DNA of 64,000 bases from Calditrichia bacterium (GTDB taxonomy: Bacteria > Calditrichota > Calditrichia > JAJRVZ01): NCBI GenBank assembly GCA_963796965.1, contig CAWCNS010000016.1, forward strand, positions 290,673 through 354,672, in the 5' to 3' direction. A model generated the notes under the pieces. It saw only the letters and a program-made list of their open reading frames with translations. It did no database searches and was not told where the DNA came from. Of this stretch, positions 8,314-59,264 are shown in pieces; the first letter of the stretch is position 1, and each line of letters starts with the position of its first letter. The translations under genes and the position numbers were made by a program.

Positions 8314-8444
8314 AATAAATATTCAATAATCAACATGGAATACTCAATGTTCAAGTAGGAGCGGACCCGTGTGTCCGCCCTGTCGATGTATCATGATATA
8401 TTAAATATTTGGTACGGAATGTCCAATTTTTGGGAATTAAGAGA

Positions 8445-22265: not shown

Positions 22266-22327
22266 ACCACGGAAATACCCCCGTTCTACGGGGGGTAATT
22301 CCGTGGTTGATTTTTTATTTTCACTCA
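22266..22327 (+). terminator. Rho-independent terminator downstream of the EF-G paralog
   Basis: Perfect 9-bp stem ACCACGGAA / TTCCGTGGT enclosing a GC-rich inner stem, followed by TTTTTT. Confidence 0.55.
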
Positions 22328-25087: not shown

Positions 25088-26244
25088 ATGACTGATCAAA
25101 AACCAGATAAATATAACGATATAAAAAATGAAATTGGCATTTACGGCGAGTCACCCGAGATTGAGGAAATGTTACGGATCGTTGGTACGGTTGCCCCCAC
25201 GGACCTCTCGGTACTAATAAACGGAGAAAGTGGAACCGGAAAAGAGTTAATCGCTCGTGCCTTACACAACCTGAGTACACGGAAGGATAAACCCCTGATA
25301 TCTGTAAATACCGGAGCAATTCCGGAGGGGATACTAGAAAGTGAGTTGTTTGGCCATGAAAAAGGATCGTTTACAGGAGCTATTGGTCAAAAAAAGGGTA
25401 TTTTGAAGCTGCTGATGGTGGAACGATCTTTTTAGATGAGATTGGAGAGATGCCGCTTAATACACAAGTTAAGTTGTTGAGAGTATTGGAGGAATCGGAA
25501 TTTATGCGTGTTGGAGGTACCCAGTTATTTAAAGTAGATGTTCGTCTGGTAGCAGCAACAAATAAAAATTTGGAAAATGCTGTTAAGAATGGTGAATTTC
25601 GTCAGGATCTTTATTTCCGCCTCAAAGCCATTACAATCGATATTCCCCCACTGAGGCAGCGACGGGAAGACATCCCTCTTTTGGTTTCTTTTTTTACTAA
25701 TAAGTTTGAGGAAGAACAAAATCATTCATTCAAAGGTTTTTCACCCGAAGCTTTACAGCTGATGAAGGAATATGATTGGCCTGGAAATATCAGGGAGTTG
25801 CGGAACTTTGTTGAGACCTCTCTGATATTGAATAAGGGCGAAGTTGTAAACTCTACATACGTCAGTGCTAATTTGAAGCTCAGAGGAGATTCAAGAAATC
25901 TGCCGGTACCGCTAAACCGGCCTCATGATCAGGCAGAGCGTGAATTAATTTATCGCACACTTTGGGCACTTAAACTGGATGTTGATGAGATTAAAAATAT
26001 TTTATTAGAAATTCAGGGACGCAATTTTAGCACAGACAATCTTTCTGACATGTCGTCTATCGGGGAGGATGCAGTTTCGGACCCTGATGGTTTTGAACTA
26101 AAACCGATGACCATTGCTGCAATGGAAAGAGACATGATAAAAGATAATTTACGAAAGTTCGATGGTAATCGAAGAAAGACCGCGCGTGTCCTTCAAATCA
26201 GTGAAAGAACATTATACCGGAAAATAAAAGAATATGGCTTGTAA
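25088..26244 (+). CDS. Sigma-54-dependent transcriptional activator (AAA+ domain plus C-terminal Fis-type HTH, no N-terminal sensory domain), frame broken near 25390
   Basis: Walker A GESGTGKE; GAFTGA-like loop; restoring one G in the run at about 25388-25397 gives [25 protein letters not shown]; C-terminal HTH RKTARVLQISERTLYRKIKEYGL. Confidence 0.8.
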
Positions 26245-35398: not shown

Positions 35399-35435
35399 AC
35401 CCACACCGTTAAAATTCAGAATCGAAATTCTATGT

Positions 35436-36819
35436 TCATCCAGCGTACTCAAGGCGTTTCTTTAATTCCTGCATTTTCTTTCTGAAAGTTTTATCCTCAT
35501 CCATCCTTTTTACCATCATTTTTTGTGCATAGATAACAGTGGTATGGTCCCGTCCGCCGAAGTGGAGTCCTATGTTGACGGTTGAGTGATTTGTTAATTC
35601 TACGCTAAGATACATTGCCGCCTGGCGAGCCAGGGCCACATGTTGTTTCCGATCCTTTTTCATAAACCGCTCTTCAGGTACATTAAAATGTTTGGATGTC
35701 ATTTGAATGATCTGCTCAATCGTAGAGCTGACGTGATCTTGGCTTTCCAATCTCTGCCACTACGCTTCTCGCCAATTCCAGGGTTGGCTCCGTTTGTGTC
35801 AATAGTACCTGGGCCATCAGCCTGGTTAACGCACCCTCCAGTTCACGGACATTATGAATAAGGTTTACAGCAAGAAATTCAATGATCTCATTGGGGATTT
35901 CCAGATCGTTCTCTTCGCATTTTTTACTTAATATAGCCATGCGGGTTTCCAGATCCGGTGGCTGTATATCTGCAATCAACCCCCATTGAAATCTTGAGAC
36001 AAGTCTTTCTTCTAAAAATCCAAGTTCAGCTATTGGGCGATCCGAAGTAAGTACAATCTGCTTTTCTTTTTGATGAAGTTCATTAAATGTATGAAAAAAC
36101 TCTTCCTGTGTTTTACCTTTATTGTTAAAAAATTGAATATCATCTATCAGGAGCAGGTCGCAAGAACGGTAAAAACTTGAAAACTCAATGGCTTTATTTT
36201 GTTGGATAGAAGATATAAAATGACTGGTAAAACTTTCACTGGACGTATAATATACCTTTAGATCAGGTTTTTTTTGTCTAACCTTATTACCAATTGCTTG
36301 AACAAGGTGGGTTTTTCCCAGACCTGTACCTCCATAAATAATCAGCGGATTGTAATTGGTCTTTCCGGGCGCATCGGCCACGGCGCTGGCAGCGGCATGG
36401 GCAAATCGGGTGCCATCGCCAACAATAAAATTTTCAAAATTATACTGCGCATTTAGATTCGTTTCGATTCGTGGCGATGCTTGTTTGGTGGCAGGAACCG
36501 GTTCTGTCTCAAAGGTATTACCGGTGTATGGCGAGGAGTAGGTTTCGTCTGCCATCACCTCATATTTTATTCCTAAAGAATGACCGGCAACCTGCGCGAC
36601 AGCATTTTGGAGTAGTTTTAAGTAATGATTATCAAGCCACTCACAGAAAAATTTGTTAGGAACCCTGAGAACAATAAAAGTTTCCGTCAGAGAAGTGGCT
36701 TTTAGAGGTGCAAACCAGGTTTGAAAACTACGTGGATTAATGTTTTCTTTAATGATTTCAAGACTTTCATTCCAGATGTGTTCGTACGAAGCCTGGGTGG
36801 CTTCTAAACTATTGGACAT
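35436..36819 (-). CDS. dnaA: Chromosomal replication initiator DnaA, frame broken between about 35716 and 35760
   Basis: Walker A GGTGLGKTHL, Walker B LLIDDIQF, sensor motifs in the 35716-36819 frame; DNA-binding domain IV (ARQAAMYL ... FGGRDHTTV) in the adjacent 35436-35750 frame. Confidence 0.85.
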
Positions 36820-37352
36820 ATTGGATTTCCCTCACCTTTTCTGCAGTTATCCACACTGAAAATTTACAAAATATTTTTAGATTGCCACCTATGTTTTTAT
36901 TGCAATACGTGAGACAATAAACCAACGAAACATTGATAACTATCTGTTATATTTGAGGTTATGCACTGTTATAAAACGTTGGAGATTATTGGTGGCCGGG
37001 ATAGGCACTGTTCAGGCTGTGAATAATTAAAAAGTTATTCACAGCTTATTCACATGCTTAATTTCTCCCTCTATCAGTTTAAGAAGCAGGAATTAAGAGT
37101 CAAGTTTTTTACCTAAGTTTTTTCATATTTTTTGTGTATTTTTAGTTTCACGTTAAACAATAGTTCAACCGAGAAGAGGTAGTTGCAATGTGGATATAGA
37201 GTTAGGCTATATTTTTTATTTAGCCACCCTCAAGATTTGATTAACAATACAATTTATAGCATTCTTTTTAGTGAGATTTATGATAATTATTTGTAATATT
37301 TCAATCCACATGCAATATATTGAGTATCGGAAGAAATTAACAGGAGCACTGG
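36820..37352. other. Candidate oriC: DnaA-box cluster and AT-rich tract upstream of dnaA
   Basis: Perfect TTATCCACA at 36847-36855; TTATTCACA-type boxes at 37018-37026 (reverse orientation), 37035-37043 and 37046-37054; ATATCCACA-type at 37189-37197; ATCCACA at 37304-37310; flanked by AT-rich stretches. Confidence 0.6.
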
Positions 37353-42532: not shown

Positions 42533-43478
42533 AAAGAATAACAGTTGGCTTTCCCGCCTGGATTATATTTTCCTCCTAAGACCCATGCTGTTTTTTCCTG
42601 GCTGGTCAACTATGCTGGCAGGTTATTTTATATCCACAAAAGATTACCTGATACCAATTCCTGGCCAAGATGTCGGCTATCTGACTATCTTCCTGTTGAT
42701 CTCTGGTTTTGCCATGCTCATGGGCAGCGCCTTTGTACTTAATCAATTAAGAGATATTGAAAGCGATAAAAAAAATAATAAATTATTTATTATATCAGAT
42801 GGAATTGTATCACCCTCTTCCGCCAGGAAAGAAGTCTTTATTCTTACGGTGCTATCAATAATCATAGGATTTTATCTTAATTATTTTGTAGGTATCCTAT
42901 TTATCTTATTTTTTGTTATAACGGGCATATTATATAATTATAAGCCTGCTTCCATGAAAGATCGACCCTGGGGATCTCTAATTGCCAATGCTTTAATGGG
43001 GTGGCTGGCATTTAGTATTGGCTGGTCGGTGAACTTTGAACCAGGAATGCCGCTGATCATCGACTCGCTCCCTTATTTTTGCTTTAACACAGCTCTATAT
43101 TTATTTACGCTTTTGCCTGATGTGAAGGGTGATAGGGTGGCAGGCAAGAAAACATTAGCAGTCGTACATGGAACAAAGAAGGTGATTCTCTGGGCATCCC
43201 TTCTATATGCTATTGGTCTGATAATTACAATTGCTGTTGTTGATTACCAGGCTCTTTTATTCTATCTGCTTTCGTTGCCATTTTTCGTGAAGAGTATCGC
43301 CACACGCCAGGTTCCTGATGCAATCAGAACCACAAAGTTTGGTATATTATTCTTTGCCCTGAGCATATGTTTACGCTGGCCCTATTATCTCGGGTTAATG
43401 GTTGCGGGATTTTTTATAACAAAATGGTATTTTAAGCATAGATTCGATTTTGAATATCCCAATTTTGCAGGGAAATAA
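42522..43478 (+). CDS. UbiA-family aromatic/isoprenoid prenyltransferase (integral membrane)
   Basis: Polytopic membrane protein with NQxxDxxxD (NQLRDIESD) and a second Asp-rich motif DVKGD; start placed at the ATG at 42522 overlapping the purF stop. Confidence 0.6.
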   Translation: MRAEKNNSWLSRLDYIFLLRPMLFFPGWSTMLAGYFISTKDYLIPIPGQDVGYLTIFLLISGFAMLMGSAFVLNQLRDIESDKKNNKLFIISDGIVSPSSARKEVFILTVLSIIIGFYLNYFVGILFILFFVITGILYNYKPASMKDRPWGSLIANALMGWLAFSIGWSVNFEPGMPLIIDSLPYFCFNTALYLFTLLPDVKGDRVAGKKTLAVVHGTKKVILWASLLYAIGLIITIAVVDYQALLFYLLSLPFFVKSIATRQVPDAIRTTKFGILFFALSICLRWPYYLGLMVAGFFITKWYFKHRFDFEYPNFAGK

Positions 43479-43484
43479 TTATTG

Positions 43485-43625
43485 GGAGAGAAGGGCGAAG
43501 ACGTGGAGCGTGGAGAGTTGAGCGAAAAGTGAAAAGAGAAGACAGAAAACGTGGAGCGTGGAGAGTAGAGCGTGCAGGGGCAGACCGCGTCGAAGATCCC
43601 GTTATACGGGGAGTCTGTCCTGGAT
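43485..43625. repeat. Composite intergenic repeat, copy A: direct repeats ACGTGGAGCGTGGAGAGT plus GGGGCAGACCGC-hairpin module
   Basis: ACGTGGAGCGTGGAGAGTNGAGCG occurs twice (43501-43523, 43549-43571); followed by GCAGGGGCAGACCGCGTCGAAGATCCCGTTATACGGGGAGTCTGTCC with a GC-rich stem-loop; related copies at 49306-49400 (inverted) and 50400-50470. Confidence 0.7.
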
Positions 43626-43882
43626 AGTGTTATCATGAATATGAATGCGACCGAAAAAATATATAAACGTCAAAGACGTCAAAGAAGGCACGAAGTACAC
43701 AAAGAACTATTTCTTATTTAAATCTTCATCATCTTAGTGCCTTCTTTGCGAACTTTGTGGTAGTCTTTTTAAATTTGACCCCTTAAAACGGGGCGCTCAG
43801 AATATTTAATTATAAATAATTCGTGAAATATGTTAAAATTAGTGGCATTCGTGGATAAAAGTATTCATTATTAATGCAGAAC

Positions 43883-43932
43883 CAAGTATCCAGAATCGAG
43901 CATCGAGAATCGAGAATCAAGTATCGAGAATC
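43883..43932. repeat. Short tandem repeat array (about 7-bp unit AATCGAG, 6 imperfect copies) just upstream of the ferredoxin start codon
   Basis: GAATCGAG CATCGAG AATCGAG AATCAAG TATCGAG AATCAAG read directly from the sequence. Confidence 0.7.
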
Positions 43933-43938
43933 AAGAAT

Positions 43939-44118
43939 ATGATTAAATTATATGAAAATACCTGCGATTTTTGCGGTACTTGTGTCGGTGTCTGCCCGGA
44001 AAATTGCATAGAATTGGAAGAAACCAGACTTACGGTAGATCACGATTTATGCACCCTCTGTAATAAATGTGTATGGATCTGTCCCGTGGAAGCTCTTTAT
44101 AAAGAAAATGTAACATGA
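43939..44118 (+). CDS. Small 2x[4Fe-4S] ferredoxin (FixX-like), not in the supplied ORF track (59 aa)
   Basis: Translation MIKLYENTCDFCGTCVGVCPENCIELEETRLTVDHDLCTLCNKCVWICPVEALYKENVT: two CxxCxxCxxxCP motifs; its stop overlaps the start of the downstream flavoprotein (ATGA). Confidence 0.7.
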   Translation: MIKLYENTCDFCGTCVGVCPENCIELEETRLTVDHDLCTLCNKCVWICPVEALYKENVT

Positions 44119-45311
44119 AAATAGATGAATGCTATGATGTAATCGTTGTTGGTGCTGGTCCTGCCGGAAGCCTGGCTGCTTATACGGCTGCAAAGGAAGG
44201 TGTATCAGTACTCTTGCTGGAAAAGGACAGGGAAATTGGCACACCGGTAAGATGTGCTGAAGCGGTGGGAAAAGACAGCCTTGATAATCTGCTTGATCAG
44301 GGCATTGATCCCAAATGGTTGGCAGCTACGATAAAAAAGTTCAGATTTGTTGCCCCCGACGGTTCAATCGTTTACCCGCAGGTGCCGATGACCGGCTATG
44401 TGTTAAATCGGAAGATTTTTGATTATGATTTGGCTCGTTATGCTGCTGAGGCAGGAGCGGTCGTTAGAACAAGAGCTTATGTCTCTGCTCTCTTGTGGGA
44501 AAATGATGCGATTGCTGGTGTAAAATGCCTGTTAGGTAAAGAAGAAAAGTACATAAAATCAAAAATAGTTATTGGGGCAGATGGGGTTGAATCAAGAGTG
44601 GCACGTTGGGCAAATATTGATACAACGACGGCAATGCGTGATATGGAAACATGCTCTCAGATGACCCTGGCGAATTTGTCCATCGATGATGATACATGTG
44701 CTTTCTACTTTTCGCAGAAAAAATTCCCGGGAGGATATGCCTGGGTCTTTCCTAAAGGCAATGGTACTGCAAATGTCGGATTGGGAATTTCAGGAAATAA
44801 TGCCCGCCAAAAATCAGCAGATTCCCTGCTCGCGTCATTTGTGGCGGAAACATTTCCTGCTGCATCTGTATTAAATAAAACCGTGGGTGGCGTGCCTTGT
44901 GCAGATCGCCCGAAAAAGATTTCTGCACCTGGTTTGCTCCTGGCCGGGGATGCCGCCATGCAAACTAATCCGGTTTCCGGAGGTGGAATCGCTACGGGAA
45001 TGACGGCTGGAAAAATAGCGGGAAGGATTGCAGCCAAGGCCATTAAATCTAATGACGTTTCTTTATCTTTTTTTGAAACCTATGAAAAAGAGTGGGACAA
45101 AGCCTGTGGAAATATCCAAAAACGTTATTACCGGTTAAAGGAAGGAATTAGTAAACTCACCGATGAGCAATTGAATAGAACGGCCGCTACCTTGAAAGAC
45201 GTCCCTCTGGAAAAACAAACACTAGTAAAGATTTTTCAGACAGCATTAATCAAACAACCGGCATTACTTGTAGATGTTCTAAAGACACTAAGTCCGTTTT
45301 CCAAACGATAA
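44115..45311 (+). CDS. FAD-dependent oxidoreductase of the geranylgeranyl-reductase / FixC family
   Basis: N-terminal FAD motif DVIVVGAGPAGSLAA, typical GGR-family length (398 aa), translationally coupled to the upstream ferredoxin. Confidence 0.75.
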   Translation: MKIDECYDVIVVGAGPAGSLAAYTAAKEGVSVLLLEKDREIGTPVRCAEAVGKDSLDNLLDQGIDPKWLAATIKKFRFVAPDGSIVYPQVPMTGYVLNRKIFDYDLARYAAEAGAVVRTRAYVSALLWENDAIAGVKCLLGKEEKYIKSKIVIGADGVESRVARWANIDTTTAMRDMETCSQMTLANLSIDDDTCAFYFSQKKFPGGYAWVFPKGNGTANVGLGISGNNARQKSADSLLASFVAETFPAASVLNKTVGGVPCADRPKKISAPGLLLAGDAAMQTNPVSGGGIATGMTAGKIAGRIAAKAIKSNDVSLSFFETYEKEWDKACGNIQKRYYRLKEGISKLTDEQLNRTAATLKDVPLEKQTLVKIFQTALIKQPALLVDVLKTLSPFSKR

Positions 45312-45329
45312 AAGGACTTAGATTTTAGG

Positions 45330-45605
45330 ACAATTAAAAAGCATTTACCTCGAAGTTCACGAAGGAATAATATAAGAAACGCCAAATGTCAAAATCGAAA
45401 TGCCAAATCAATTATTAATGTCCAATGATAATTATTTGCTTTTATAGTTAAGCATTTGATTTTGGACATTCATTTGACATTCGGGCTTGGGCATTAGACA
45501 TTTCGCCTTTTATCCTGTATTTGTTGAATCTTCGTGACCTTCGTGTTAGGTATTTAAATAAATGATTCGTGAAATTAGTCAAAATTTGTGTAATTCTTGG
45601 TCAGA
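45330..45605. repeat. Nested inverted-repeat element upstream of ftsY, ending with a copy of the ATTCGTGAAAT ... ATTC(G/T)TGG motif
   Basis: Outer IR CGAAGTTCACGAAGG (about 45338) versus CTTCGTGACCTTCGTG (about 45521); inner IR CGCCAAATGTCAAAAT versus GACATTTCGCC; motif GATTCGTGAAATTAGTCAAAATTTGTGTAATTCTTGG at about 45558-45600. Confidence 0.6.
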
Positions 45606-45656
45606 GTTTTATAATTGATTAGTCTTTTTGTATTTGAAAAAGGAGAGGAATAGTAC

Positions 45657-46577
45657 TTGGTAAAGTTTTTTAATCGAATTCAATCTAGTCTAAAAAAAAC
45701 ACGTGAAGGTGTTTTTGGAAAATTAAACAGAATTTTCACAGCCAAACGAAATATTGATGATGATCTACTCGATGAAATTGAGGAAATTCTAATCGCTGGT
45801 GATGTTGGTGTTGATACGTCTCTGGATATTATAGATAAAATAAAAGAACGTGTGCGTGCGGAAAAGTATGAAACCAGCGATGAACTGGAGTATCTGATCC
45901 GAGATGAAATCTCCGGTATTCTTCTTCCACCTGAGGTACCTGAGGAAAAGAATCAACAAGGATTACAGGTTGTACTTGTGGTCGGGGTGAATGGTACTGG
46001 TAAAACCACTTCGATTGCTAAATTAGCAAAGTTTTATATGAACCAGAACAAAAAGGTACTTTTAGCCGCTGCTGACACCTTTCGTGCTGCGGCAATTAAT
46101 CAGTTGAGTATTTGGGCAGAAAGGGTAGGTTGCGATATTATCAAACATCAGGATGGTGCTGATCCATCGGCTGTTGTGTTTGACGCGGTTAATGCCGCCC
46201 AGGCCAGAGATGTAGACTTCCTCATAATTGATACGGCCGGCCGACTACACACTAAATCAAATCTTATGGCAGAATTAAGTAAAATATCACGTGTTGTTCA
46301 AAAGAAAATTCCTGAAGCACCTCACCAGATAATCCTTGTCCTTGATGCCAGTACAGGGCAAAATGCCATCAATCAAGCGAAGGAGTTTAAGCAATCTGCC
46401 CAGGTTAATTCAATATTTTTAACCAAATTAGATGGTACGGCAAAGGGTGGGGTTGTCCTGGCTATAAATAAAGAATTACAGATACCCGTGAAATATATTG
46501 GCACCGGAGAACAGTTAGATGATATGGATGTGTTTGATGCAAATTCATTTGTGGAAGGATTATTTCTAAGAGAATGA
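45657..46577 (+). CDS. ftsY: Signal recognition particle receptor FtsY
   Basis: NG-domain motifs VGVNGTGKTT, DTAGR, TKLDGTAKGG; TTG start after AAGGAGAGG RBS. Confidence 0.9.
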   Translation: MVKFFNRIQSSLKKTREGVFGKLNRIFTAKRNIDDDLLDEIEEILIAGDVGVDTSLDIIDKIKERVRAEKYETSDELEYLIRDEISGILLPPEVPEEKNQQGLQVVLVVGVNGTGKTTSIAKLAKFYMNQNKKVLLAAADTFRAAAINQLSIWAERVGCDIIKHQDGADPSAVVFDAVNAAQARDVDFLIIDTAGRLHTKSNLMAELSKISRVVQKKIPEAPHQIILVLDASTGQNAINQAKEFKQSAQVNSIFLTKLDGTAKGGVVLAINKELQIPVKYIGTGEQLDDMDVFDANSFVEGLFLRE

Positions 46578-47897: not shown

Positions 47898-49190
47898 ATG
47901 AAAATGAAAAAAGTACTATACGATGGTCTCCTTTTCCTACTTGTATTGGCTAATTCATCTTTTGGCCAATTTTATGAGGAGAGTCGGTTAAGTGGTGCCG
48001 GCAATCCTTATTTCTCTATCGAACTGTTCCGAACGGTCTCCGATGATATGAAATCAGGCCAGATTTATATCTACAGCAATATTGTGAATGATGATTTAAC
48101 CTTTATTAAACATGATAGTCTTGATGTTTACTACTCTAAATTCGAGTGGGAAGTTGCCATTATGGATGAAGATGAGGAGCAAACATTGGGCTCGGATAAT
48201 GTAGTAAAAGAGGTTATGGAATCCGACTATAAAGAGACAAATAACAGAGAGAAGAAGATATTTCTATCTACCAATTTTGATATCCCGGCCGGAGAATATA
48301 TTGTTTTCGTGGAAATGCGTGATCTTATTACCAAGAAAACCGTCTCTCGAAAAGTAGAAATTGAAATGTTTGATTTTGAGAACAATCAAATGGATATGAG
48401 CGATATTCTTTTTGTTGATGAAGCAAGTTCTGATTCACTTGGTAATCCAACTCGATTTACACCACGTGTAGAAGATAATTTTTCACGTGAATCCCCCTAT
48501 ATTTATATCTATAATGAGGTTTATACTAAAGAAGTACCAGCAACCGTCTCAATCCGGTATCAACTGTTAAATAATGATGAAGATGTTGAGTTAGATACGC
48601 TTGTTTTTAGAGAGTTGGATAAACCGCTTACCTCTCATGTAATAAAGTTAGATAAACAATCCCTTTCAAGGAGTTATTATCGATGTGTTGTGCAGGCAAA
48701 AAGAGGGGGAGATCATGTAGAGCGGTTCCGGGGTTTGACATTCTATTGGATAAGTGTTCCTGAAACTCATGAAGATCTTGCCGAGGCCTTAAGACAAATG
48801 CGATATATACTTGATGGTGATTCTCTGGATTTTTATGAAGAAGCACCTCTCGAAGAACAAAAGGCATTTTTTGCTCGTTTTTGGGCGGCACGCGATCCGA
48901 ATCCGGATTCAGAAACGAATGAACTTTTGGTAGAATATTTCACACGCGTTAATTTTGCTAACCGGGAGTTCTCAAATTATTCAAATGATGGGTGGCTCTC
49001 CGACAGAGGCAGGATTCTGGTCAAGTTTGGATTCCCGGATGATGTTGAAAGGCATCCTTTTGAGATGGATTCGGTACCTTATGTGATATGGCGATATTAT
49101 GGATTGAGAAAGGTCTTTTTGTTTGTGGATAGAAGCGGGTTTGGCGATTACCGTTTGCCCCCTGAATATCAGAGTGAGGAATATCGGTAA
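47898..49190 (+). CDS. GWxTD-domain secreted protein
   Basis: Signal peptide from the ATG at 47898; C-terminal GWLSDRGRILVKFGFPDD matching the GWxTD-domain signature. Confidence 0.65.
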   Translation: MKMKKVLYDGLLFLLVLANSSFGQFYEESRLSGAGNPYFSIELFRTVSDDMKSGQIYIYSNIVNDDLTFIKHDSLDVYYSKFEWEVAIMDEDEEQTLGSDNVVKEVMESDYKETNNREKKIFLSTNFDIPAGEYIVFVEMRDLITKKTVSRKVEIEMFDFENNQMDMSDILFVDEASSDSLGNPTRFTPRVEDNFSRESPYIYIYNEVYTKEVPATVSIRYQLLNNDEDVELDTLVFRELDKPLTSHVIKLDKQSLSRSYYRCVVQAKRGGDHVERFRGLTFYWISVPETHEDLAEALRQMRYILDGDSLDFYEEAPLEEQKAFFARFWAARDPNPDSETNELLVEYFTRVNFANREFSNYSNDGWLSDRGRILVKFGFPDDVERHPFEMDSVPYVIWRYYGLRKVFLFVDRSGFGDYRLPPEYQSEEYR

Positions 49191-49261
49191 AGATCAATTT
49201 TCAATAGTCAATAAACAATAATCAATATTCAAATTCAGTCGATGAAGTGATTGTTTTTTAA

Positions 49262-49400
49262 TTTGTGAATTATTCTGTCCACGAATTTGATAATGTAATT
49301 GTCATTGCGGTCTGCCCCTACACTCTCTACTCTCCACCCTCTACGCACCGCACTCTTCTCTCTTCCCACACCTCTCCACCCTACATCAAAAACTTGAATA
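49262..49400. repeat. Composite intergenic repeat, copy C (inverted orientation), lacking the 28-bp hairpin module
   Basis: Reverse complement reads GTGGAGAGTAGAGAGTGTAGGGGCAGACCGC|AATGACAATTACATTATCAAATTCGTGG; identical to copy B except that GTCGAAGACCCCGTTAACCGGGGCCCTG is absent. Confidence 0.7.
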
Positions 49401-49506
49401 TTGACTATTGTTTATTGCATACGATTATTATCCGGCCTTGCCTATTTTATGACATCTTCGTATATTTTACTGCTCCACCTATTAGGAAACGGTGGTATTG
49501 GTATCT

Positions 49507-49580
<74 letters not shown>

Positions 49581-49746
49581 CAAGAGGCGGCACCATCCTC
49601 TGGGTTCTCCCCCTACCCAAATTTGGTGCTGCGGCAGAGAATGACGATAACGCTCGGTTTTGAGGTTGTCCCCCGGCCTTCAAGCCAGCCAGTCATTCTC
49701 TGTTTTTTTTCTGGAACAAATGAGAATTTGAATCGTTTTTAAACTA

Positions 49747-50099
49747 TGGGGACGATCTGGCTTCGACGGGCAGGATGCGGTTACGGATGGCATTCCGGGA
49801 TTATCGGATAGCCCGTGATTATCCGGTAGCACGACAAGTGCCGATTATGATTACGCAATGGCAGCCTAACTAGGTCTGTCACATCCTGAGGGACACTAAT
49901 CTACCGGGGTTTTTCAGGATGCCATTTTGGGTAGATCGATTCTTGAGGGTGTCAGGACCTTAAGAATTGTATTCTTCTGACTCGCAAAATTGTTGGTTGG
50001 TTATCATACCTGCAATGATGTTAAATCTAAATGATGACTAAGAATGTAGAGGTCTGTAATGGTGCCTGTTCGGACCCGGGTTCAATTCCCGGCGTCTCC
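49747..50099 (+). ncRNA. ssrA: tmRNA (SsrA), one-piece
   Basis: 5' end GGGGACGATCTGGCTTCGACGGG and 3' tRNA-like end GGACCCGGGTTCAATTCCCGGCGTCTCCA match tmRNA termini; candidate tag reading frame ends ...ADYDYAMAA with TAA at 49867-49869. Confidence 0.85.
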
Positions 50100-50260
50100 A
50101 CTAGTTCGGTAGAGAGTAGAGCGTAGAGCGTTAAGAGAAGAAGAGAGAAGAGGGAAGACAGAAGAGAATATGAGTTAAATATTCTCTCCTCGCTCTTCTC
50201 TCTTCCTTTTTTGTATTATACCTCACCCTCTACTCTTTACGCTCAACTCTCAACGGTAAA
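50100..50260. repeat. Purine-rich / pyrimidine-rich imperfect palindrome with GTAGAGCGT-type repeat words immediately 3' of tmRNA
   Basis: GGTAGAGAGTAGAGCGTAGAGCG then AGAAGAGGGAAGACAGAAGAGAATAT ... ATATTCTCTCCTCGCTCTTCTCTCTTCC (inverted arms), then CT-rich reverse copies of the same words. Confidence 0.6.
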
Positions 50261-50264
50261 AAAG

Positions 50265-50396
50265 ATGTCCACAACCCTTATGATCGCTATTCTCGCAATA
50301 GTAGTAGTTTACCTTCTCATCGCTTCAAAAAATCAACGAAAAAAATCAAACGAAGTTAAACGTCAGGGTGAAAGACCGTGCCTGGCGAAGGGATGA
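50265..50396 (+). CDS. Hypothetical 43-aa single-TM peptide (possible small membrane protein / type-I-toxin-like)
   Basis: MSTTLMIAILAIVVVYLLIASKNQRKKSNEVKRQGERPCLAKG: hydrophobic helix followed by a basic tail; no strong RBS; lies between tmRNA and repeat copy B. Confidence 0.3.
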   Translation: MSTTLMIAILAIVVVYLLIASKNQRKKSNEVKRQGERPCLAKG

Positions 50397-50399
50397 CCG

Positions 50400-50530
50400 T
50401 GAAGCGTAGAGCGTGGAGAGTAGAGAGTGTAGGGGCAGACCGCGTCGAAGACCCCGTTAACCGGGGCCCTGAATGACAAGTAAATATATTCGTGAAATTC
50501 TGTAAAAATTAGTGTAATTCGTGGTTAAAA
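50400..50530. repeat. Composite intergenic repeat, copy B (most compact complete copy)
   Basis: GTAGAGCGTGGAGAGTAGAGAGTGTAGGGGCAGACCGC + hairpin module GTCGAAGACCCCGTTAACCGGGGCCCTG + AATGACAAG + motif ATTCGTGAAATTCTGTAAAAATTAGTGTAATTCGTGGTTAAAA. Confidence 0.7.
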
Positions 50531-50560
50531 TCTTCCAAGAATTCACACCTACCCAGTATT

Positions 50561-50590
50561 GACATTGAATTGAAAAGTATCTAAATTTAA
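50561..50590 (+). promoter_or_regulatory. Candidate sigma-70-type promoter for tRNA-Gly
   Basis: TTGACA at 50561-50566, about 17-bp spacer, TAAATT -10-like hexamer, about 24 nt upstream of the tRNA 5' end. Confidence 0.35.
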
Positions 50591-50612
50591 CGTCCAAATA
50601 TAATAGTAATCT

Positions 50613-50686
50613 ATATGAAGAAGCGAGAGTAGACTCAGCTGGTAGAGCATCACGTTGCCAACGTGATTGTCGCGGGTTCAAATCCC
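50613..50686 (+). tRNA. tRNA-Gly (anticodon GCC)
   Basis: Acceptor GCGAGAG/CTCTCGC, D-loop with GG, anticodon loop TTGCCAA, T-loop TTCAAAT, discriminator T; followed by a T-run. Confidence 0.85.
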
Positions 50687-50900
50687 GTCTCTCGCTCTTT
50701 TTTTATTTGTGCAGACCACAAGTAAAAATTTTGGATTTCAGATTGCGGAATTTGGATTTAATTCCAAAATCCGAATCCGAAATCCAAAATTGAATGGCGA
50801 CGTACTCCCGCAAGACTAGAGCGGCCAGTAGACTTAAGGTAATCGAGTTGTTTGACAATAAACCGAGAAATGGATCGGGAGCGAATATTTATATTATTAC

Positions 50901-50973
50901 GGCGACGTACCCAAGTGGCTAAGGGAGAGGTCTGCAAAACCTTTATGCGGCGGTTCGAATCCGCCCGTCGCCT
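50901..50973 (+). tRNA. tRNA-Cys (anticodon GCA)
   Basis: Acceptor GGCGACG/CGTCGCC, anticodon stem GAGGT/ACCTT with loop CTGCAAA, T-arm GGCGG-TTCGAAT-CCGCC, discriminator T. Confidence 0.85.
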
Positions 50974-51073
50974 CCTCATAATAAGAAAAAAGACAAAAGA
51001 AATAAGAAAAAAGAATGTGACATGGATATTAAATTCATTTTTCATTAATCATTTTTCTATTGTCTTGATTCCC

Positions 51074-51159
51074 GCCGGGGTGGTGGAATTGGTAGACACA
51101 AGGGACTTAAAATCCCTCGGGAGTTAAATCCCGTACCGGTTCAAGTCCGGTCCCCGGTG
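51074..51159 (+). tRNA. tRNA-Leu (anticodon TAA), type II with long variable arm
   Basis: Acceptor GCCGGGG/CCCCGGT, anticodon stem AGGGA/TCCCT with loop CTTAAAA, long variable arm CGGGAGTTAAATCCCGT, T-arm ACCGG-TTCAAGT-CCGGT. Confidence 0.85.
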
Positions 51160-51166
51160 ATACCAC

Positions 51167-51195
51167 AAAATCCCGCTTATAGCGGGATTTTTTAA
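51167..51195 (+). terminator. Rho-independent terminator after tRNA-Leu
   Basis: ATCCCGC-TTAT-AGCGGGAT hairpin followed by TTTTTT. Confidence 0.6.
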
Positions 51196-51414
51196 ATTCG
51201 AAACTCTAATCTCTAAATCCTAAATAATTTTCAAATCCCAAGCACCAAACCCCAAATAAATCTCAATCTTCAATAACTAATTTCCAAACAATTTGAACAA
51301 TGGAAATTGGTATCTAATCGGATATTGGTATTTGGGTATTATTTGAAATTTGGTACATGTTATTTGGAATTTATCCTCCACGGGATTAATTAACTATTTC
51401 CATCAAAAAAGTCG

Positions 51415-52279
51415 GTGATTATAAATGTAGATAATAGTTCACCCGATGGTACGAAGGATATGTTGATGAACACACCAACGAAAGTTCCAAAGATATATAT
51501 TTCTACAGCACCAGGTGTTAAAGGAAAAGGAAATAATTTTAAAAACCTATTTGAAGCGGCTGTTGAACTTAATGCAAAAGCCGTTGTTGTTGTCGATGCA
51601 GATTTAAAAAGTATTACCACCGGATGGATAAAATATCTGGCCGAACCTTTATTGGGCCGTTTTGACTATGTGGCTCCCATCTATGCCAGACATAAATATG
51701 ATGGTTCCATCACAAATCATATCGCTTATCCGATGCTAAGAGCATTTTATGGTTTAAGAGTAAGACAACCTATTGGTGGTGATTTCGGATTTTCAGGAAA
51801 TTAGCGCGTGTTTTTCTAACAGAGAAACTCTGGAATGATAAAATAGCTCACTTTGGAATTGATATATGGATGACGACCATTGCCATCGCCAGAAGATTTA
51901 ATGTTTGTCAGGCCTTTTCAGGTACACCTAAAATTCACAATCCGAAAGATCCTGCGAAAGATTTAGGACCAATGTTTACGAAGGTTGTTATCACTACTTT
52001 TGATTTGATGATCGAATTTGAATACCTATGGAAAGATACTTCAGGTATCCAGCCAAGCAATATATATGGTTTTGGTCTTGGCGTTACTGGAAGCCCGCGG
52101 TTTTAACAGTTAATAAAGATGCTCTTTTTGACAGCTTATTTCAAGTTTGGAGCCGTTATGGAAATTTGTGGAAAAAAATCATATCACAACCAGAATTGAT
52201 TGAATTGGGTAAGATTGAGAAAATTGTCAAAACAAAAATTCTATTATCACAGCGATCTTTTGGGCAGAATTCTGTTTGA
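51415..52279 (+). pseudogene. Glycosyltransferase remnant (GT2/GT81, glucosyl-3-phosphoglycerate-synthase-like), N-terminally truncated and split into three frames
   Basis: Pieces 51415-51804, 51870-52106 and 52028-52279 together read VDNSSPDGT ... VVVVDADL ... QPIGGDFGFSGN | ... IAHFGIDIWMTT ... ; a stop codon lies in frame just upstream of 51415 and the expected N-terminal beta1 region is absent. Confidence 0.6.
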
Positions 52280-57436: not shown

Positions 57437-59264
57437 ATGGAAACAAAATATTTTAAAAATAAGGAAGACTTAACTATTGCCATTATAGGCAGTGGTGGTG
57501 AGGGGTCATCTCTGCTGGTGAAATTTTACTTCGCGCCGGTTCTCAAAATGGTTTATATGGAATGATGTTAAAGAGCTATGGACCGCAAATTCGTGGTGGT
57601 GAAACTATGGCCCAAATTCGAATGAAAAATTCACTGGTTTTATCACAAGGTGATCTAATCGATGCGTTAATTATTCTAAATTGGGATCATTACTATCGCT
57701 TTGAGGAGGAGATATCTCTAGATGACAGGACAGTAATCTTTCATGATAACATTGAAATGCTTCCCCCAGACTTGTCATTTCCCCAAAAGATTCAATTTTT
57801 AGGGGTGCCGTTTACTGAAATTGCAAAAAAAACGTCAGGTACATCGAAATCCAAAAATCTTGTCGCACTTGGTTTTCTATCAGGTTGGTTTGGGTTGGGA
57901 AAAAAGGTTTTGAACGCGAGATTCAGCGACAATTTACCGGAAAAAACAAGGACATAATTTATGGTAACTTAAAATCTTTCAAAAAAGGGCTAGAATTGGC
58001 TGAAAGCAACAAAGCCGCAACACCTTTTGATTGGTCAAGTAAGAACCACAATCCAAAAATGATTTTAACCGGCAATGAGGCGATATCTTTAGGGTCTTTA
58101 TTTCGCTGGGGTGCAATTCTATGCTGGTTATCCTATTACGCCTGCCAGTGAAATTATGGAGTGGATGGCAAATGAGCTGCCAAAGTTTGAAGATATTTTC
58201 ATACAGACAGAAGATGAAATTACGGCAATTACAATGGCCATCGGAGCTTCATTTGCCGGAGCTAAATCAATGACTGCCACCTCTGGTCCAGGACTGTCTC
58301 TTATGACAGAAGCCATTGGTCTGGCTGCTATGGCAGAATTACCTGTTGTTATTGTGGATGTACAACGAGTAGGACCGAGTACCGGAATTCCAACAAAAAC
58401 AACCCAGGCAGACCTCTTTCATGCTGTTTTTGGCGGTCACGGCGATTATCCGCGCGTAGTTTTAGCCCCCGTAAACGTAGCCGATGCGATTACTATTGCT
58501 GTACATGCCTTTTATCTATCGGAAAAATATCAATTACCTGTGATTATACTAAGTGACCAATTTATAGGCCAACGTCTTGAGATTATTCCCCAGGTTGATT
58601 TTAAAGCAATGCAATCAATGGTTATAAATCGATCTCTTCCTTCAATCGAAGAATTACATAACTATAGCAGGTATAAAATGACTCCAAACGGTGTTTCACC
58701 GCTATCGAAACCAGGAATTAAAAACGGTATGTATACTGCATATGGCATTGAACACGATGAATTGAGTTTGCCAACATCTTCCTCTAATATCCAGAAACGG
58801 ATGAACAGGAAACGTTTGAAGAAAAATCAGACAATTTTGCAGCAGGAATCCGACATATTACTTCGTCTCGGTAATATGAATCCCAGGATTGGTATCCTTA
58901 GCCTGGGGATCTACCACAGGTGCTATTCAAGAAGCTGATTTCTTCACTCCTGGAAGATGATTATAACATCGGTACTATCGTACCACGCCAATTGAAACCA
59001 TTACCTACCAATCAAATTCAGTCATGGGTGAACCACTTAGAAGAATTGATTATTTTTGAGTTATCCGAGGGACAATTTTATACCTATTTAAAGAGTGAAA
59101 TAATATTGCCCAGAAAAACAGGTCTATTTGCTCGTCCGGGAGTGAACCCATTTACAGTGAATGAAATAATAAAGGCAATTATAGAAAGTAAATTAAAATG
59201 GAAATCTATTCAACAAAAGATTACAAAGCAATTTAAAACCGGTATGGTGCCCTGGTTGTGGTGA
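57437..59264 (+). pseudogene. korA: 2-oxoacid:ferredoxin oxidoreductase alpha subunit (KorA-like, gamma-alpha fusion), at least 4 frame disruptions
   Basis: ATG at 57437; IAIIGSGGEG then, after restoring one G at about 57514-57518, VISAGEILLRAGSQNGLYGMMLKSYGPQIRGGE; further pieces 57885-58151, 58111-58938 (YAGYPITPASEI, TSGPGLSLM) and 58920-59264. Confidence 0.7.

What the first reader, a model, noticed from the sequence alone, without database searches (positions are those of the whole stretch)
50400..50530. Multi-copy composite intergenic element with a modular GC hairpin showing compensatory base changes
A composite element recurs at 43485-43625 plus 43811-43860, at 49262-49400 (inverted) and at 50400-50530. 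It consists of GTAGAGCGTGGAGAG-type words, a GGGGCAGACCGC core, an optional 28-bp module and an ATTCGTGAAAT ... TAAAATTAGTG ... ATTCGTGG motif; a partial copy of the last motif lies at 45558-45600. The 28-bp module forms a 5-bp GC stem whose two copies differ by paired substitutions (CCCGT/ACGGG in copy A versus CCCCG/CGGGG in copy B). That is the signature of selection on RNA or DNA secondary structure rather than on sequence. The inverted copy C lacks exactly this module (GCAGACCGC|AATGACA), indicating modular gain or loss. The ATTCGTG direct-repeat motif lies 50-90 bp upstream of tRNA-Gly, the ferredoxin/flavoprotein pair and ftsY, so it may be a shared promoter or operator. I do not recognise this as a described repeat family.
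Basis: seen in the sequence. Interest (0 to 1): 0.55.

Follow-up and report, generated by a model that had tools for sequence, protein, structure and literature searches.

The report
Decaying REP-like mosaic repeat cluster
The three-copy "element" is real, but it is best read as locally copied, partly decayed pieces of a REP-type (GTAG-tagged) palindromic intergenic repeat embedded in lineage-typical short-word tracts of a Calditrichota genome, and the claimed compensatory hairpin changes do not hold up.

Summary
The repeat exists at the stated coordinates and is far beyond chance: A/B are 90% identical over 62 nt, B/C 97.5% over 40 nt, and GGGGCAGACCGC occurs exactly three times. An independent assembly of the same species ends one base short of the end of the 31-nt run that B and C share exactly, so it is not a misassembly. 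It is not one unit but a mosaic of four blocks typical of this Calditrichota lineage: GTAGAGN-type heptamer tracts, ancestral at these sites in relatives; a GTAG-tagged GC palindrome; a small GAAGA-YCCC..GGGR hairpin; and TTCGTG word arrays. The "GGGGCAGACCGC core" is the tag plus 5' arm of the palindrome. Intact versions are window 8355-8380 and the orthologue of site C in a 78% relative. Copy A keeps both arms, with the "28-bp module" as a 27-nt loop insert. B has lost the 3' arm and C the module too, which makes a decay series. Among the module copies no base pair changes on both sides, and the A, B and C regions fold no better than shuffles. Relatives lack the ATTCGTG motif at the orthologous sites yet keep the promoters. 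Closest known kind: GTAG-tagged REPs and BIME/BOX-like mosaics. Genome-wide copy number and a RAYT gene could not be tested. Interest is low to moderate.

The parts
43485..43575 (+). Copy A: purine-rich heptamer tract (GTGGAGC/GTGGAGA/GTAGAGC words), with an internal 48-nt-period duplication (43487-43524 / 43535-43572, 87%)
   Evidence: (D5)
43574..43620 (+). Copy A: GYAG-tagged palindrome. Tag GCAG 43574-43577; 5' arm GGGCAGAC 43578-43585; 27-nt loop 43586-43612 holding the small hairpin (CCCGT 43598-43602 / ACGGG 43606-43610); 3' arm GTCTGTCC 43613-43620
   Evidence: sequence; the covariance model of the intact palindrome matches 43568-43630 at full length with a 26-nt loop insertion; fold
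43671..43770 (+). Site A: long hairpin built of CACGAAG/CACAAAG words (arms 43671-43695 / 43733-43757) followed by a T-run. Terminator-like; a similar hairpin lies at a different locus in L016
   Evidence: I9; z = -3.75
43779..43793 (+). Copy A: second module-like hairpin CCCC-TTAAAAC-GGGG. Its 3' flank CGCTCAGAAT resembles B's CCCTGAATGACA
43812..43860 (+). Copy A: box array ATTCGTGA-N11-ATTAGTGG-N1-ATTCGTGG, 85 nt upstream of the ferredoxin start codon
   Evidence: (D1)
45531..45600 (+). Partial copy P: TTCGTGACCTTCGTG followed by ATTCGTGA-N11-ATTTGTGT-N1-ATTCTTGG, 57 nt upstream of ftsY
49209..49235 (.). Left arm of a 27-nt, 93% inverted repeat of AATATTG-type tract words. Together with 49391-49417 it encloses copy C
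   Evidence: I5
49260..49390 (-). Copy C, read on the minus strand: heptamer tract, GTAG tag, core GGGGCAGACCGC (49307-49318), AATGACAA (49299-49306), single box ATTCGTGG (49279-49286), AATTCACA (49264-49271). It has no 28-nt module and no 3' arm
   Evidence: (I1, I2, I11)
49391..49417 (.). Right arm of the 27-nt inverted repeat that encloses copy C
   Evidence: I5
50396..50431 (+). Copy B: heptamer tract. It is orthologous to the tract after the small ORF in L008, so it is ancestral at this site
   Evidence: the alignment 50328-50428 with L008:12595-12691 runs on from the ORF into the tract
50429..50443 (+). Copy B: GTAG tag plus the 5' arm of the palindrome (the 'core' GGGGCAGACCGC, 50432-50443). 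The 3' arm is absent
   Evidence: 6-nt gap where A has AGTCTG; no full-length model match
50444..50471 (+). Copy B: the 28-nt module GTCGAAGA-CCCCG-TTAAC-CGGGG-CCCTG, with a 5-bp stem at 50452-50456 / 50462-50466
50472..50547 (+). Copy B: AATGACAAGTAAATA, then boxes ATTCGTGA 50488-50495, ATTAGTGT 50508-50515 and ATTCGTGG 50517-50524, then AATTCACA 50540-50547. It ends 12 nt before the conserved tRNA-Gly promoter
50559..50587 (+). Conserved sigma-70-type promoter of tRNA-Gly (TTGACA-17-TAAATT). Not part of the repeat; it marks the repeat's 3' limit
   Evidence: 85-87% conserved in L008, L012 and L018
8355..8380 (+). Intact family member: GTAG-GA-GCGGAC-CCGTGT-GTCCGC-CC, preceded by an AATATTC-type tract (8318-8357) and followed by TGTCGATG

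Best explanation
The 'element' is a patchwork of intergenic building blocks typical of this Calditrichota lineage. It has been copied and homogenised among three neighbouring spacers. It is not a single functional unit.

Its centre is a REP-type palindrome: an unpaired GTAG tag followed by a GC-rich stem (GGGCAGAC / GTCTGCCC). The intact form is seen at window 8355-8380 and, in a 78% relative, at the orthologue of site C. The copies form a decay series:
- Copy B has lost the 3' arm.
- Copy C has also lost the module.

The flanking GTAGAGN heptamer tracts are ancestral at these sites. Inference: because the tracts are alike at different sites and occur in both orientations, they provide homology for ectopic gene conversion or replication template switching. 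That would carry adjacent sequence (tag, 5' arm, module, TTCGTG boxes) from one spacer to another and keep the arms nearly identical.

Any function is most likely the generic one of REPs and hairpin-rich spacers: RNA 3'-end protection or attenuation, or binding of DNA-structuring proteins next to highly expressed RNA genes. The 28-nt module itself has no demonstrable selected structure.
For: Shown:
(1) The covariance model built from the two intact palindromes recovers copy A at full length with a 26-nt loop insertion, and also the L012 orthologue, but not B or C.
(2) The 3' flank of A (GTCTGTCCTG--GATAG) is homologous to GTCTGCCCTATCGATAG in L008 and GTCCGCCCTGTCGATG at 8355.
(3) The intact hairpins fold significantly better than shuffles (z = -3.5 and -3.3). 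A, B and C do not (z = -0.9, +0.15, +0.7).
(4) One true A-U to G-C double change separates 8355 from L008 site C. L012 has a different stem behind the same GTAGGGGC head at the orthologous place.
(5) B's tract is orthologous to L008's, yet B is 97.5% identical to C over 40 nt.
(6) Relative to L008, the window has about 125 extra nt between the tract and the conserved tRNA-Gly promoter. L012 has a different, larger insert at the same place.
(7) The site A spacer is 0 nt in L018 and L020, about 220 nt in L008 and 460 nt in the window.
(8) In the window the three composite copies lie within 7 kb and none occurs in the other 57 kb.
(9) From the literature: REPs end in an unpaired GTAG; their stems are 6-13 bp; some families have long loops, up to 27 bp, with inner self-complementary parts; and degenerate GTAG units adjoined to unrelated stem-loops occur in hundreds of copies in Pseudomonas (PMC3733652).
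Against: Genome-wide copy number is unknown. Both collection scans found no further copies and did not contain the source species, so 'REP family' rests on 4 members in 64 kb plus 2-3 in relatives. No RAYT or other transposase is present in the window or the fetched loci (gene tables). GTAG could be partly explained by adjacency to GTAGAGN tracts, although 8355 follows a different tract and still has GTAG. Gene conversion or template switching is inferred from identity patterns and was not observed. The orientation rule of the TTCGTG arrays, and the recurrence of an inverted-repeat bracket in L012, hint at selection that a purely neutral patchwork model does not predict.
Confidence: 0.55

Rival explanations
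1. Cis-regulatory module. The TTCGTG box array is the operator or upstream element for one DNA-binding regulator that co-controls fdx-GGR, ftsY and the tRNA-Gly cluster, and the repeat spread because it carries that site.
For: The full arrays lie 57-99 nt upstream of genes and point the same way. The same double box, TTCGTGTAATTCGTGG, lies 97 nt upstream of an unrelated gene in a 61% relative (L020:17926), and another lies 47 nt upstream of a minus-strand gene (L020:20418). The 9-10 nt period would put the boxes on one face of the helix. ATTCGTGR occurs 15 times in the window against 4.3 expected.
Against: Spacers between boxes are as conserved as the boxes, so A, B and P look like paralogous copies. 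The orthologous upstream regions in L008, L012 and L018 lack the motif, while the promoters are conserved. The same words, in the opposite sense, sit just after stop codons and form hairpin arms, which fits an RNA- or structure-level role better than an operator. No candidate regulator was identified. The DnaA-box reading was rejected.
Confidence: 0.12
2. Functional long-range inverted repeat. C (minus) and B (plus) are the two arms of a selected bracket around the tRNA-Lys / tmRNA / small-ORF cassette. It could act at the DNA level (cruciform, topological insulator or inversion) or as an RNA processing stem.
For: The window has a 55-nt, 85% inverted repeat, including 40 nt at 97.5%, with 1027 nt between the arms. 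In the 84% relative L012, the same cassette is bracketed at the same two places by an unrelated repeat of 59 nt at 95% plus 49 nt at 80%. L008 has a weak 24-nt version. The arms resemble each other more than they resemble their orthologues.
Against: L018 has no such bracket. Two strong terminator hairpins, after tRNA-Lys and after tmRNA, lie between the arms, and the tRNA-Lys promoter lies downstream of arm C, so one RNA carrying both arms is unlikely. Two insertions of any repeat have an even chance of being inverted. Template switching between pre-existing complementary tracts would produce such brackets without selection. No evidence of inversion: every assembly of the L008-type species that spans the cassette shows the same order.
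Confidence: 0.1
3. Miniature inverted-repeat transposable element (MITE) of about 125-150 nt that inserted at three sites.
For: Compared with L008, site B carries a discrete insert of about 125 nt between GAGAGT and ATTGACA, with AGT on both sides. There is presence/absence variation at 8355 compared with L016.
Against: There are no convincing terminal inverted repeats: GTAGGGG against GGGTAGG is at best 6 of 7 by eye. The three copies have different ends and different module content. The left part of the repeat at B is orthologous sequence, not an insert. No transposase was found, and plasmid and phage searches gave no match.
Confidence: 0.08
4. Structured non-coding RNA or cis-regulatory RNA whose 28-nt hairpin is under selection.
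For: A 5-bp GC stem is present in A1, B and A2. A possible relative in L008 upstream of ftsY (GAAGA-TCCC-TAT-GGGA-TGACAAAGTA) would make the outermost pair U-A, U.G or C-G in different copies.
Against: No pair changes on both sides among the window copies. Folding is no better than shuffles. No Rfam match even at E <= 1. No T-run follows the hairpin, so it is not an intrinsic terminator. The module is dispensable in C, and the alignment of the L008 copy is uncertain.
Confidence: 0.04
5. Assembly artefact: a duplicated sequence created by misassembly.
For: The window assembly has several frameshifted essential genes, so it is error-prone for indels.
Against: The copies differ from one another and sit in different, syntenic contexts. 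An independent short-read assembly reproduces copy C and ends one base short of the end of the 31-nt exact B/C run, as expected of a true repeat.
Confidence: 0.02

Closest known systems
GTAG-tagged REPs (repetitive extragenic palindromes; Di Nocera et al. 2013, PMC3733652; Nunvar et al. 2010, PMC2817692)
   Same: Both have an unpaired GTAG (GYAG) tag directly 5' of a 6-8 bp GC-rich stem and lie extragenically, mostly downstream of genes. Stem variants arise by complementary changes (8355 against L008). Members have either a short loop or a long loop containing an inner palindrome (copy A). Degenerate units adjoin unrelated stem-loops.
   Different: Copy number is unknown: 4 in 64 kb here, against typically more than 100 per genome. 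No RAYT gene was seen. No head-to-head or tail-to-tail dimers. The host phylum, Calditrichota in the FCB group, is not among those reported for GTAG repeats. Two of the three flagged copies are no longer palindromes.
BIMEs of E. coli and BOX elements of Streptococcus pneumoniae (mosaic intergenic repeats; own knowledge plus the PMC2817692 abstract)
   Same: These are mosaics of a palindromic unit plus other short conserved motifs, with optional internal modules. In BOX elements, boxB varies in number. They sit in intergenic regions next to highly expressed genes.
   Different: There is no sequence similarity. BIMEs have regularly alternating REP orientations, and BOX elements have a fixed A-B-C order; neither is seen here. 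IHF or gyrase binding is untested.
Heptanucleotide tandem repeats (long simple sequence repeats of Mrazek et al. 2007, cyanobacterial STRR, TAACTGA repeats of Beggiatoaceae; as described in PMC4679880)
   Same: All are 7-nt tandem words confined to intergenic DNA. Some lie directly upstream of start codons (43888-43938 before fdx; the same place in L008).
   Different: Here many different heptamers are used, the arrays are imperfect, and they typically occur as inverted pairs that form long hairpins with z down to -6.
18-nt palindrome aAACCGTTgaAACGGTTt of Caldithrix abyssi (PMC5317091)
   Same: It is a REP-like intergenic palindrome in the same phylum and is strand-specific.
   Different: The sequence is unrelated, it has no GTAG tag, it is not embedded in larger repeats, and it does not occur in this window.
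Quasipalindrome / inverted-repeat template-switch mutagenesis (own knowledge)
   Same: It would explain nearly identical inverted arms (B/C; 49209-49235 / 49391-49417; the L012 bracket) growing out of short pre-existing complementary tracts.
   Different: This is a mutational mechanism, not an element family, and it is inferred here rather than observed.

Membership tests
GTAG-tagged REP superfamily (PMC3733652) | Short stem-loop with a 6-13 bp stem | tested here: inconclusive
   Met by 8355-8380 (6-8 bp) and by copy A (8 bp including one G.T, 27-nt loop). Not met by B and C, which lack the 3' arm.
GTAG-tagged REP superfamily (PMC3733652) | Unpaired terminal GTAG (allowed variants include GYAG) | tested here: met
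   GTAG is present at 8355, B (50429-50432), C, L008 site C, L012 site C and L008:6110. A has GCAG. At 8355 the preceding tract is not of the GTAGAGN type, so the tag belongs to the unit.
GTAG-tagged REP superfamily (PMC3733652) | Extragenic, predominantly downstream of coding regions | tested here: met
   All members lie in spacers after ubiA, GWxTD, the small ORF and the DUF2141 gene.
GTAG-tagged REP superfamily (PMC3733652) | High copy number dispersed over the genome | not testable with these tools
   The source genome is not in any searchable collection. There are 4 members in 64 kb and none in 21 kb of L016.
GTAG-tagged REP superfamily (PMC3733652) | Associated RAYT (IS200/IS605-type tyrosine transposase) gene flanked by the repeats | not testable with these tools
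   None was found among the window ORFs scanned or in the gene tables of the loci. A RAYT is usually single-copy per genome, so 64 kb says little.
CGTC-tagged REPs (PMC3733652), considered for the 28-nt module because it begins GCGTCGAAGA | CGTC tag next to an 8-9 bp stem starting with A-T pairs, a 4-5 nt loop and a CCA tail | tested here: not met
   The stem is only 5 bp, is all G-C, lies 5 nt away from the CGTC, and has no CCA tail.
MITE | Terminal inverted repeats and target-site duplication at consistent ends | tested here: not met
   The ends differ among A, B and C. At best there is a 6/7 match at B and a 3-nt AGT.
Intrinsic terminator | GC hairpin immediately followed by a T-run | tested here: not met
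   No T-run follows the module or the palindrome in A, B or C, and the scan did not flag them. Neighbouring tract hairpins do have T-runs.
Known RNA family (Rfam 15) | Covariance-model match | tested here: not met
   No match at E <= 1 over 43400-45700. Over 49150-51450 only the tRNAs, tmRNA and hairpin noise matched.
DnaA-box cluster, considered because dnaA lies 7 kb away and box 3 of A reads CGTGGATAA | Several 9-mers matching TTATCCACA with at most 1 mismatch | tested here: not met
   Only one box (43850-43858) matches with 1 mismatch. Across the window such matches number 31 against 22 expected, which is not significant. True boxes cluster at 36847-37197.
Heptanucleotide simple-sequence repeats | Tandem 7-nt units in non-coding DNA | tested here: met
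   Tandem Repeats Finder reports period-7 arrays at 43502-43574, 49321-49382 and 50398-50429 and in many other spacers. Period-7 autocorrelation is 0.37-0.56 in about 10 spacers, against 0.25 in genes.

The most novel reading that the evidence does not exclude
Spacers in this Calditrichota lineage may be organised by a strand-oriented vocabulary of short word arrays that bracket transcription units.

In mRNA sense, CCACGAA-type arrays sit 11-107 nt after stop codons and TTCGTGG-type arrays sit 47-99 nt before starts. This held in 11 of 12 lone sites across four genomes. When both lie in one spacer they form a hairpin.

The B/C pair would then be one instance of a selected long-range complementarity around the tRNA-Lys / tmRNA / small-ORF cassette. 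That complementarity was re-created with unrelated sequence in the sister lineage L012. It would be structure-level conservation without sequence conservation, implying an unrecognised protein or RNA mechanism that reads these arrays.
Probability: 0.13. Interest if true: 0.6.

Novelty: new member of a known kind. Interest (0 to 1): 0.3.

Why it matters
If the assignment holds, it extends GTAG-tagged REP-like repeats to Calditrichota, a phylum (in the FCB group) where they have not been reported. It also gives a clear small-scale example of how such palindromes decay and are shuffled into mosaics by recombination between simple-repeat tracts. In practice it warns annotators that the spacers around the tRNA/tmRNA cluster of these genomes are repeat-rich, break short-read assemblies, and mimic 'covarying' hairpins. 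The side observations may be worth more than the flagged element itself. These are the word arrays oriented relative to genes, the recurrent inverted-repeat brackets around ssrA, and a highly conserved structured spacer between tRNA-Lys and tmRNA.

Tried and rejected
(1) The genome-contig scan with GAGNGTGYAGGGGCAGACCGC found only 6 chance hits in unrelated GC-rich MAGs.

(2) The metagenome-contig scan with AGTAGAGN{0,3}TGYAGGGGCAGACC found only the L008-type species at the orthologous site plus one chance hit.

(3) Exact-protein look-ups of three window proteins found nothing. The source species is reachable only through the 2.8-kb contig L007.

(4) DnaA-box reading of the boxes: rejected.

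(5) CGTC-REP reading of the module: rejected.

(6) The GGGGWSAS motif of TIRYT inverted repeats does not match, because the core has C at the W position.

(7) A sigma-70 promoter inside the boxes is not consistent across copies. Only copy A has a good match (11 of 12), and it is on the opposite strand.

(8) MITE ends were not found.

(9) Rfam at E <= 1 gave nothing. Plasmid and phage BLASTN gave nothing.

(10) MAFFT could not put the palindromes of L012 and L008 site A in register with the others, so those pairings were read by hand. The model search gave the structural alignment instead.

(11) The covariance-model search of all 137 kb in hand found no further members.

(12) The ORFs overlapping the copies (43385-43636 on the minus strand; 49265-49663) are treated as not coding: the first has no Pfam match, and the second was not scanned but runs across tRNA-Lys.

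Full report
SOURCE AND CONTEXT. The window is a 39% GC chromosome segment of an uncultured member of Calditrichota. The closest homologues of its GWxTD protein that carry a source name are labelled Calditrichales or Caldithrix. Nearly all genes lie on the plus strand. The flagged region contains ubiA, a ferredoxin, a geranylgeranyl-reductase-like flavoprotein, ftsY, a MiaB-like enzyme and a GWxTD protein. These are followed by tRNA-Lys, tmRNA, a small conserved ORF, tRNA-Gly, tRNA-Cys and tRNA-Leu. dnaA and a cluster of canonical DnaA boxes lie at 35.7-37.3 kb. The assembly carries frameshifts in dnaA, an amidohydrolase and a sigma-54 activator, so single-base indels are unreliable. Over the 2.8 kb covered by an independent short-read contig (L007) there are only 3 substitutions and no indels.

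- GGGGCAGACCGC occurs exactly three times, at 43577, 49307 (minus strand) and 50432. It occurs nowhere else even with 2 mismatches allowed.
- A and B are 90% identical over 62 nt. B and C are 97.5% identical over 40 nt. The box motif is 81-87% identical over 38-50 nt among A, B and the partial copy P.
- C lacks exactly the 28 nt at 50444-50471.
- L007 ends at window 49336, one base short of the end of the 31-nt exact B/C run at 49307-49337. A k-mer assembler would be expected to break at about that point at a true repeat.

THE 'COMPENSATORY' CLAIM FAILS. In register, A1 reads GAAGA-TCCCGT-TAT-ACGGGG and B reads GAAGA-CCCCG-TTAAC-CGGGG. None changes on both sides. The 54-nt regions around the core fold no better than shuffled sequence, with z = -0.9, +0.15 and +0.7. 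By contrast, neighbouring tract hairpins reach z = -3.75 to -6.0.

WHAT THE CORE IS. In L008, a relative with 78% protein identity, the orthologue of site C reads GTAG-G-GGCAGAC-CCGTGT-GTCTGCC-C on the same strand as copy C. This is a clean hairpin with z = -3.5. The 84% relative L012 has GTAG-G-GGCGAGTC-GAT-GACTCGCC at the same place, with z = -3.3. Inside the window, 8355-8380 reads GTAG-GA-GCGGAC-CCGTGT-GTCCGC-CC followed by TGTCGATG. That is 88% identical to the L008 unit and differs in the stem by one true A-U to G-C double change.

A covariance model of these two units recovers copy A (43568-43630) at full length with a 26-nt insertion in the loop, and it recovers the L012 unit.
- A retains the 3' arm, GTCTGTCC at 43613-43620, and the homologous 3' flank.
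- B lacks the arm; the alignment has a 6-nt gap where A has AGTCTG.
- C lacks the module as well.
This is a decay series, not a structure under selection.

THE OTHER BLOCKS.
(i) Heptamer tracts. Period-7 arrays occur in about 10 of 36 spacers. GTAGAGN-type tracts occupy the same places in L008, L012 and L018: after tmRNA, after the small ORF, before tRNA-Lys and after ubiA. The alignment of the window with L008 runs from the small ORF straight into B's tract, so that part of 'copy B' is orthologous sequence, not an insert. Tracts usually come as inverted pairs that form long hairpins, for example 50105-50254 at -62 kcal/mol with z = -5.75.
(ii) The small hairpin has a possible relative upstream of ftsY in L008: GAAGA-TCCC-TAT-GGGA-TGACAAAGTA.
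(iii) TTCGTG arrays. Arrays of the form (TTCGTG-N2-4)n-TTCGTGG occur in the window (A, B, P), in L020 at five places, and in L018 as four TCCGTG units. In mRNA sense, lone CCACGAA-type sites lie 11-107 nt after stop codons and lone TTCGTGG-type sites lie 47-99 nt before starts. There is one exception, at 63068. Pairs in one spacer are hairpin arms, for example the terminator at 22267-22306.

HOW THE COPIES AROSE (inference). Four observations bear on this.
- Relative to L008, the window has about 125 extra nt between the ancestral tract and the conserved tRNA-Gly promoter. L012 has a different and larger insert at the same point.
- The ubiA-fdx spacer is 0 nt in L018 and L020, about 220 nt in L008 and 460 nt in the window.
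- B resembles C more than it resembles its own orthologue.
- The region holds several nearly perfect inverted duplications: 49209-49235 with 49391-49417 at 93%, and B with C. L012 has an unrelated 59-nt 95% plus 49-nt 80% bracket at the same two positions.
The simplest account is ectopic gene conversion or replication template switching seeded by the similar, oppositely oriented tracts. No transposase, plasmid or phage similarity was found, and no consistent element ends, which argues against a MITE.

THE PROMOTER/OPERATOR IDEA. The boxes lie 85, 57 and 99 nt upstream of fdx, ftsY and tRNA-Gly. Several points weigh against a shared promoter or operator:
- The conserved tRNA-Gly promoter (TTGACA-17-TAAATT, 50559-50587) and the tRNA-Lys promoter are separate from the boxes and are conserved in relatives that lack them.
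- The spacers between boxes are conserved like the boxes themselves.
- The same words occur in the opposite sense after stop codons.
A regulatory role is not excluded, but it is not the best reading. DnaA boxes were considered and rejected.

COMPARISON WITH KNOWN FAMILIES. REPs are 20-40 bp palindromes that end in an unpaired GTAG. Their stems are 6-13 bp. Sub-families differ by complementary stem changes, some have loops of up to 27 bp with inner palindromes, and degenerate units fused to unrelated stem-loops occur in Pseudomonas (PMC3733652). The units here meet the tag, stem and location criteria. Copy number and an associated RAYT could not be tested. In that survey, GTAG repeats were reported from Proteobacteria, Cyanobacteria, Chloroflexi and the PVC group, but not from the FCB group. 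The Caldithrix abyssi genome paper describes a different 18-nt palindrome (PMC5317091). The mosaic arrangement recalls BIME and BOX elements. The tracts belong with heptanucleotide simple repeats (PMC4679880). The CGTC-REP definition is not met by the module.

VERDICT. The repeat is real, but its interpretation needs substantial correction. It is a locally homogenised, partly decayed mosaic built around a GTAG-tagged REP-like palindrome, which makes it a new member of a known kind. Interest is low to moderate (0.3). The most novel reading still open is that the gene-oriented word arrays and the recurrent brackets around ssrA are selected. I give that 0.13.

Noticed in passing
window 49582-49712 (also L008:11838-11965, L012:2138-2270, L018:11754-11885): The ~125-nt spacer between tRNA-Lys and tmRNA is more than 90% identical in four lineages whose neighbouring protein is only 65-84% identical. 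It folds to -50.7 kcal/mol (z = -5.9), ends in a T-run, keeps 42 predicted pairs (one compensatory, several one-sided changes) and has no Rfam match. It is a candidate conserved structured RNA or functional tRNA-Lys trailer.
   Followed up: partly
window 50266-50396: A small ORF of about 43 aa (hydrophobic helix followed by KNQRKKSNE) between tmRNA and tRNA-Gly is conserved in L008, L012 and L018. It has no Pfam match. The window copy has a 1-nt indel in its tail, and in L008 the reading frame runs on into the heptamer tract.
   Followed up: partly
window 8318-8354, 43888-43938, 49193-49232, 50105-50257, 50720-50800, 50983-51057, 51193-51225 and others: Imperfect 7-nt tandem tracts of many different words fill about 10 of 36 spacers. 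They usually occur as inverted pairs that form long hairpins (z down to -6). One tract abuts the ferredoxin start codon, and L008 has a different heptamer tract at the same place.
   Followed up: partly
window A, B, P, 49279, 57255, 22267/22299; L020:6174/6223, 11295, 17934, 20418, 20589; L018:6792; L016:17130: TTCGTG/TCCGTG word arrays with a 9-10 nt period follow an orientation rule relative to genes. CCACGAA sense lies just after stop codons and TTCGTGG sense lies 47-99 nt before starts. This held in 11 of 12 lone sites; pairs in one spacer form hairpins.
   Followed up: partly
L012:1737-1844 and 3269-3375: In the 84% relative, the tRNA-Lys / tmRNA / small-ORF cassette is bracketed by an inverted repeat of about 108 nt (59 nt at 95%). 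It is unrelated in sequence to the window's B/C bracket but sits at the same two positions.
   Followed up: partly
window 43479-43938 compared with L018:5318-5319, L020/L021:4766-4767 and L008:6025-6246: ubiA and the ferredoxin gene abut in more distant relatives but are separated by about 220 nt (L008) and 460 nt (window) of tracts and hairpins. This is spacer growth inside a formerly tight operon.
   Followed up: yes
window 35399-36819 (minus strand), 23222-24458, 25088-26244, 57562-59264: Apparent frameshifts split dnaA (domain IV continues in another frame), an amidohydrolase, a sigma-54 activator and pyruvate:ferredoxin oxidoreductase subunits. The assembly probably has indel errors.
   Followed up: partly
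window 36820-37352: A cluster of DnaA boxes lies upstream of dnaA: TTATCCACA at 36847, TTATTCACA three times at 37018-37054, and ATATCCACA at 37189. This is probably the dnaA promoter or the replication origin, although the cumulative GC-skew minimum is near 7-8 kb.
   Followed up: no
window 8318-8357 compared with L008:7628-7667 and L008:11505-11529: A 40-nt AATATTC-type tract is 92.5% identical between the window and a 78% relative at non-orthologous sites, and a 25-mer is shared exactly with a third site. It behaves as a conserved dispersed module in its own right.
   Followed up: partly
window 50796-50805 (tRNA-Cys is at 50901); L008:12960-13265; L018:12891-13260: A 10-nt copy of the tRNA-Cys 5' end lies 105 nt upstream of the gene. 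In L018 the corresponding place holds a called GIY-YIG ORF flanked by tRNA-Cys-like fragments, and L008 has tRNA-Cys-like fragments around a short uncalled reading frame that resembles it. This suggests the scar of a small mobile cassette.
   Followed up: no
L018:6905-7050: An 8-nt tandem array (TTGCGTCG) upstream of ftsY runs into a stretch of N in the public record, another sign that these spacer repeats break assemblies.
   Followed up: no
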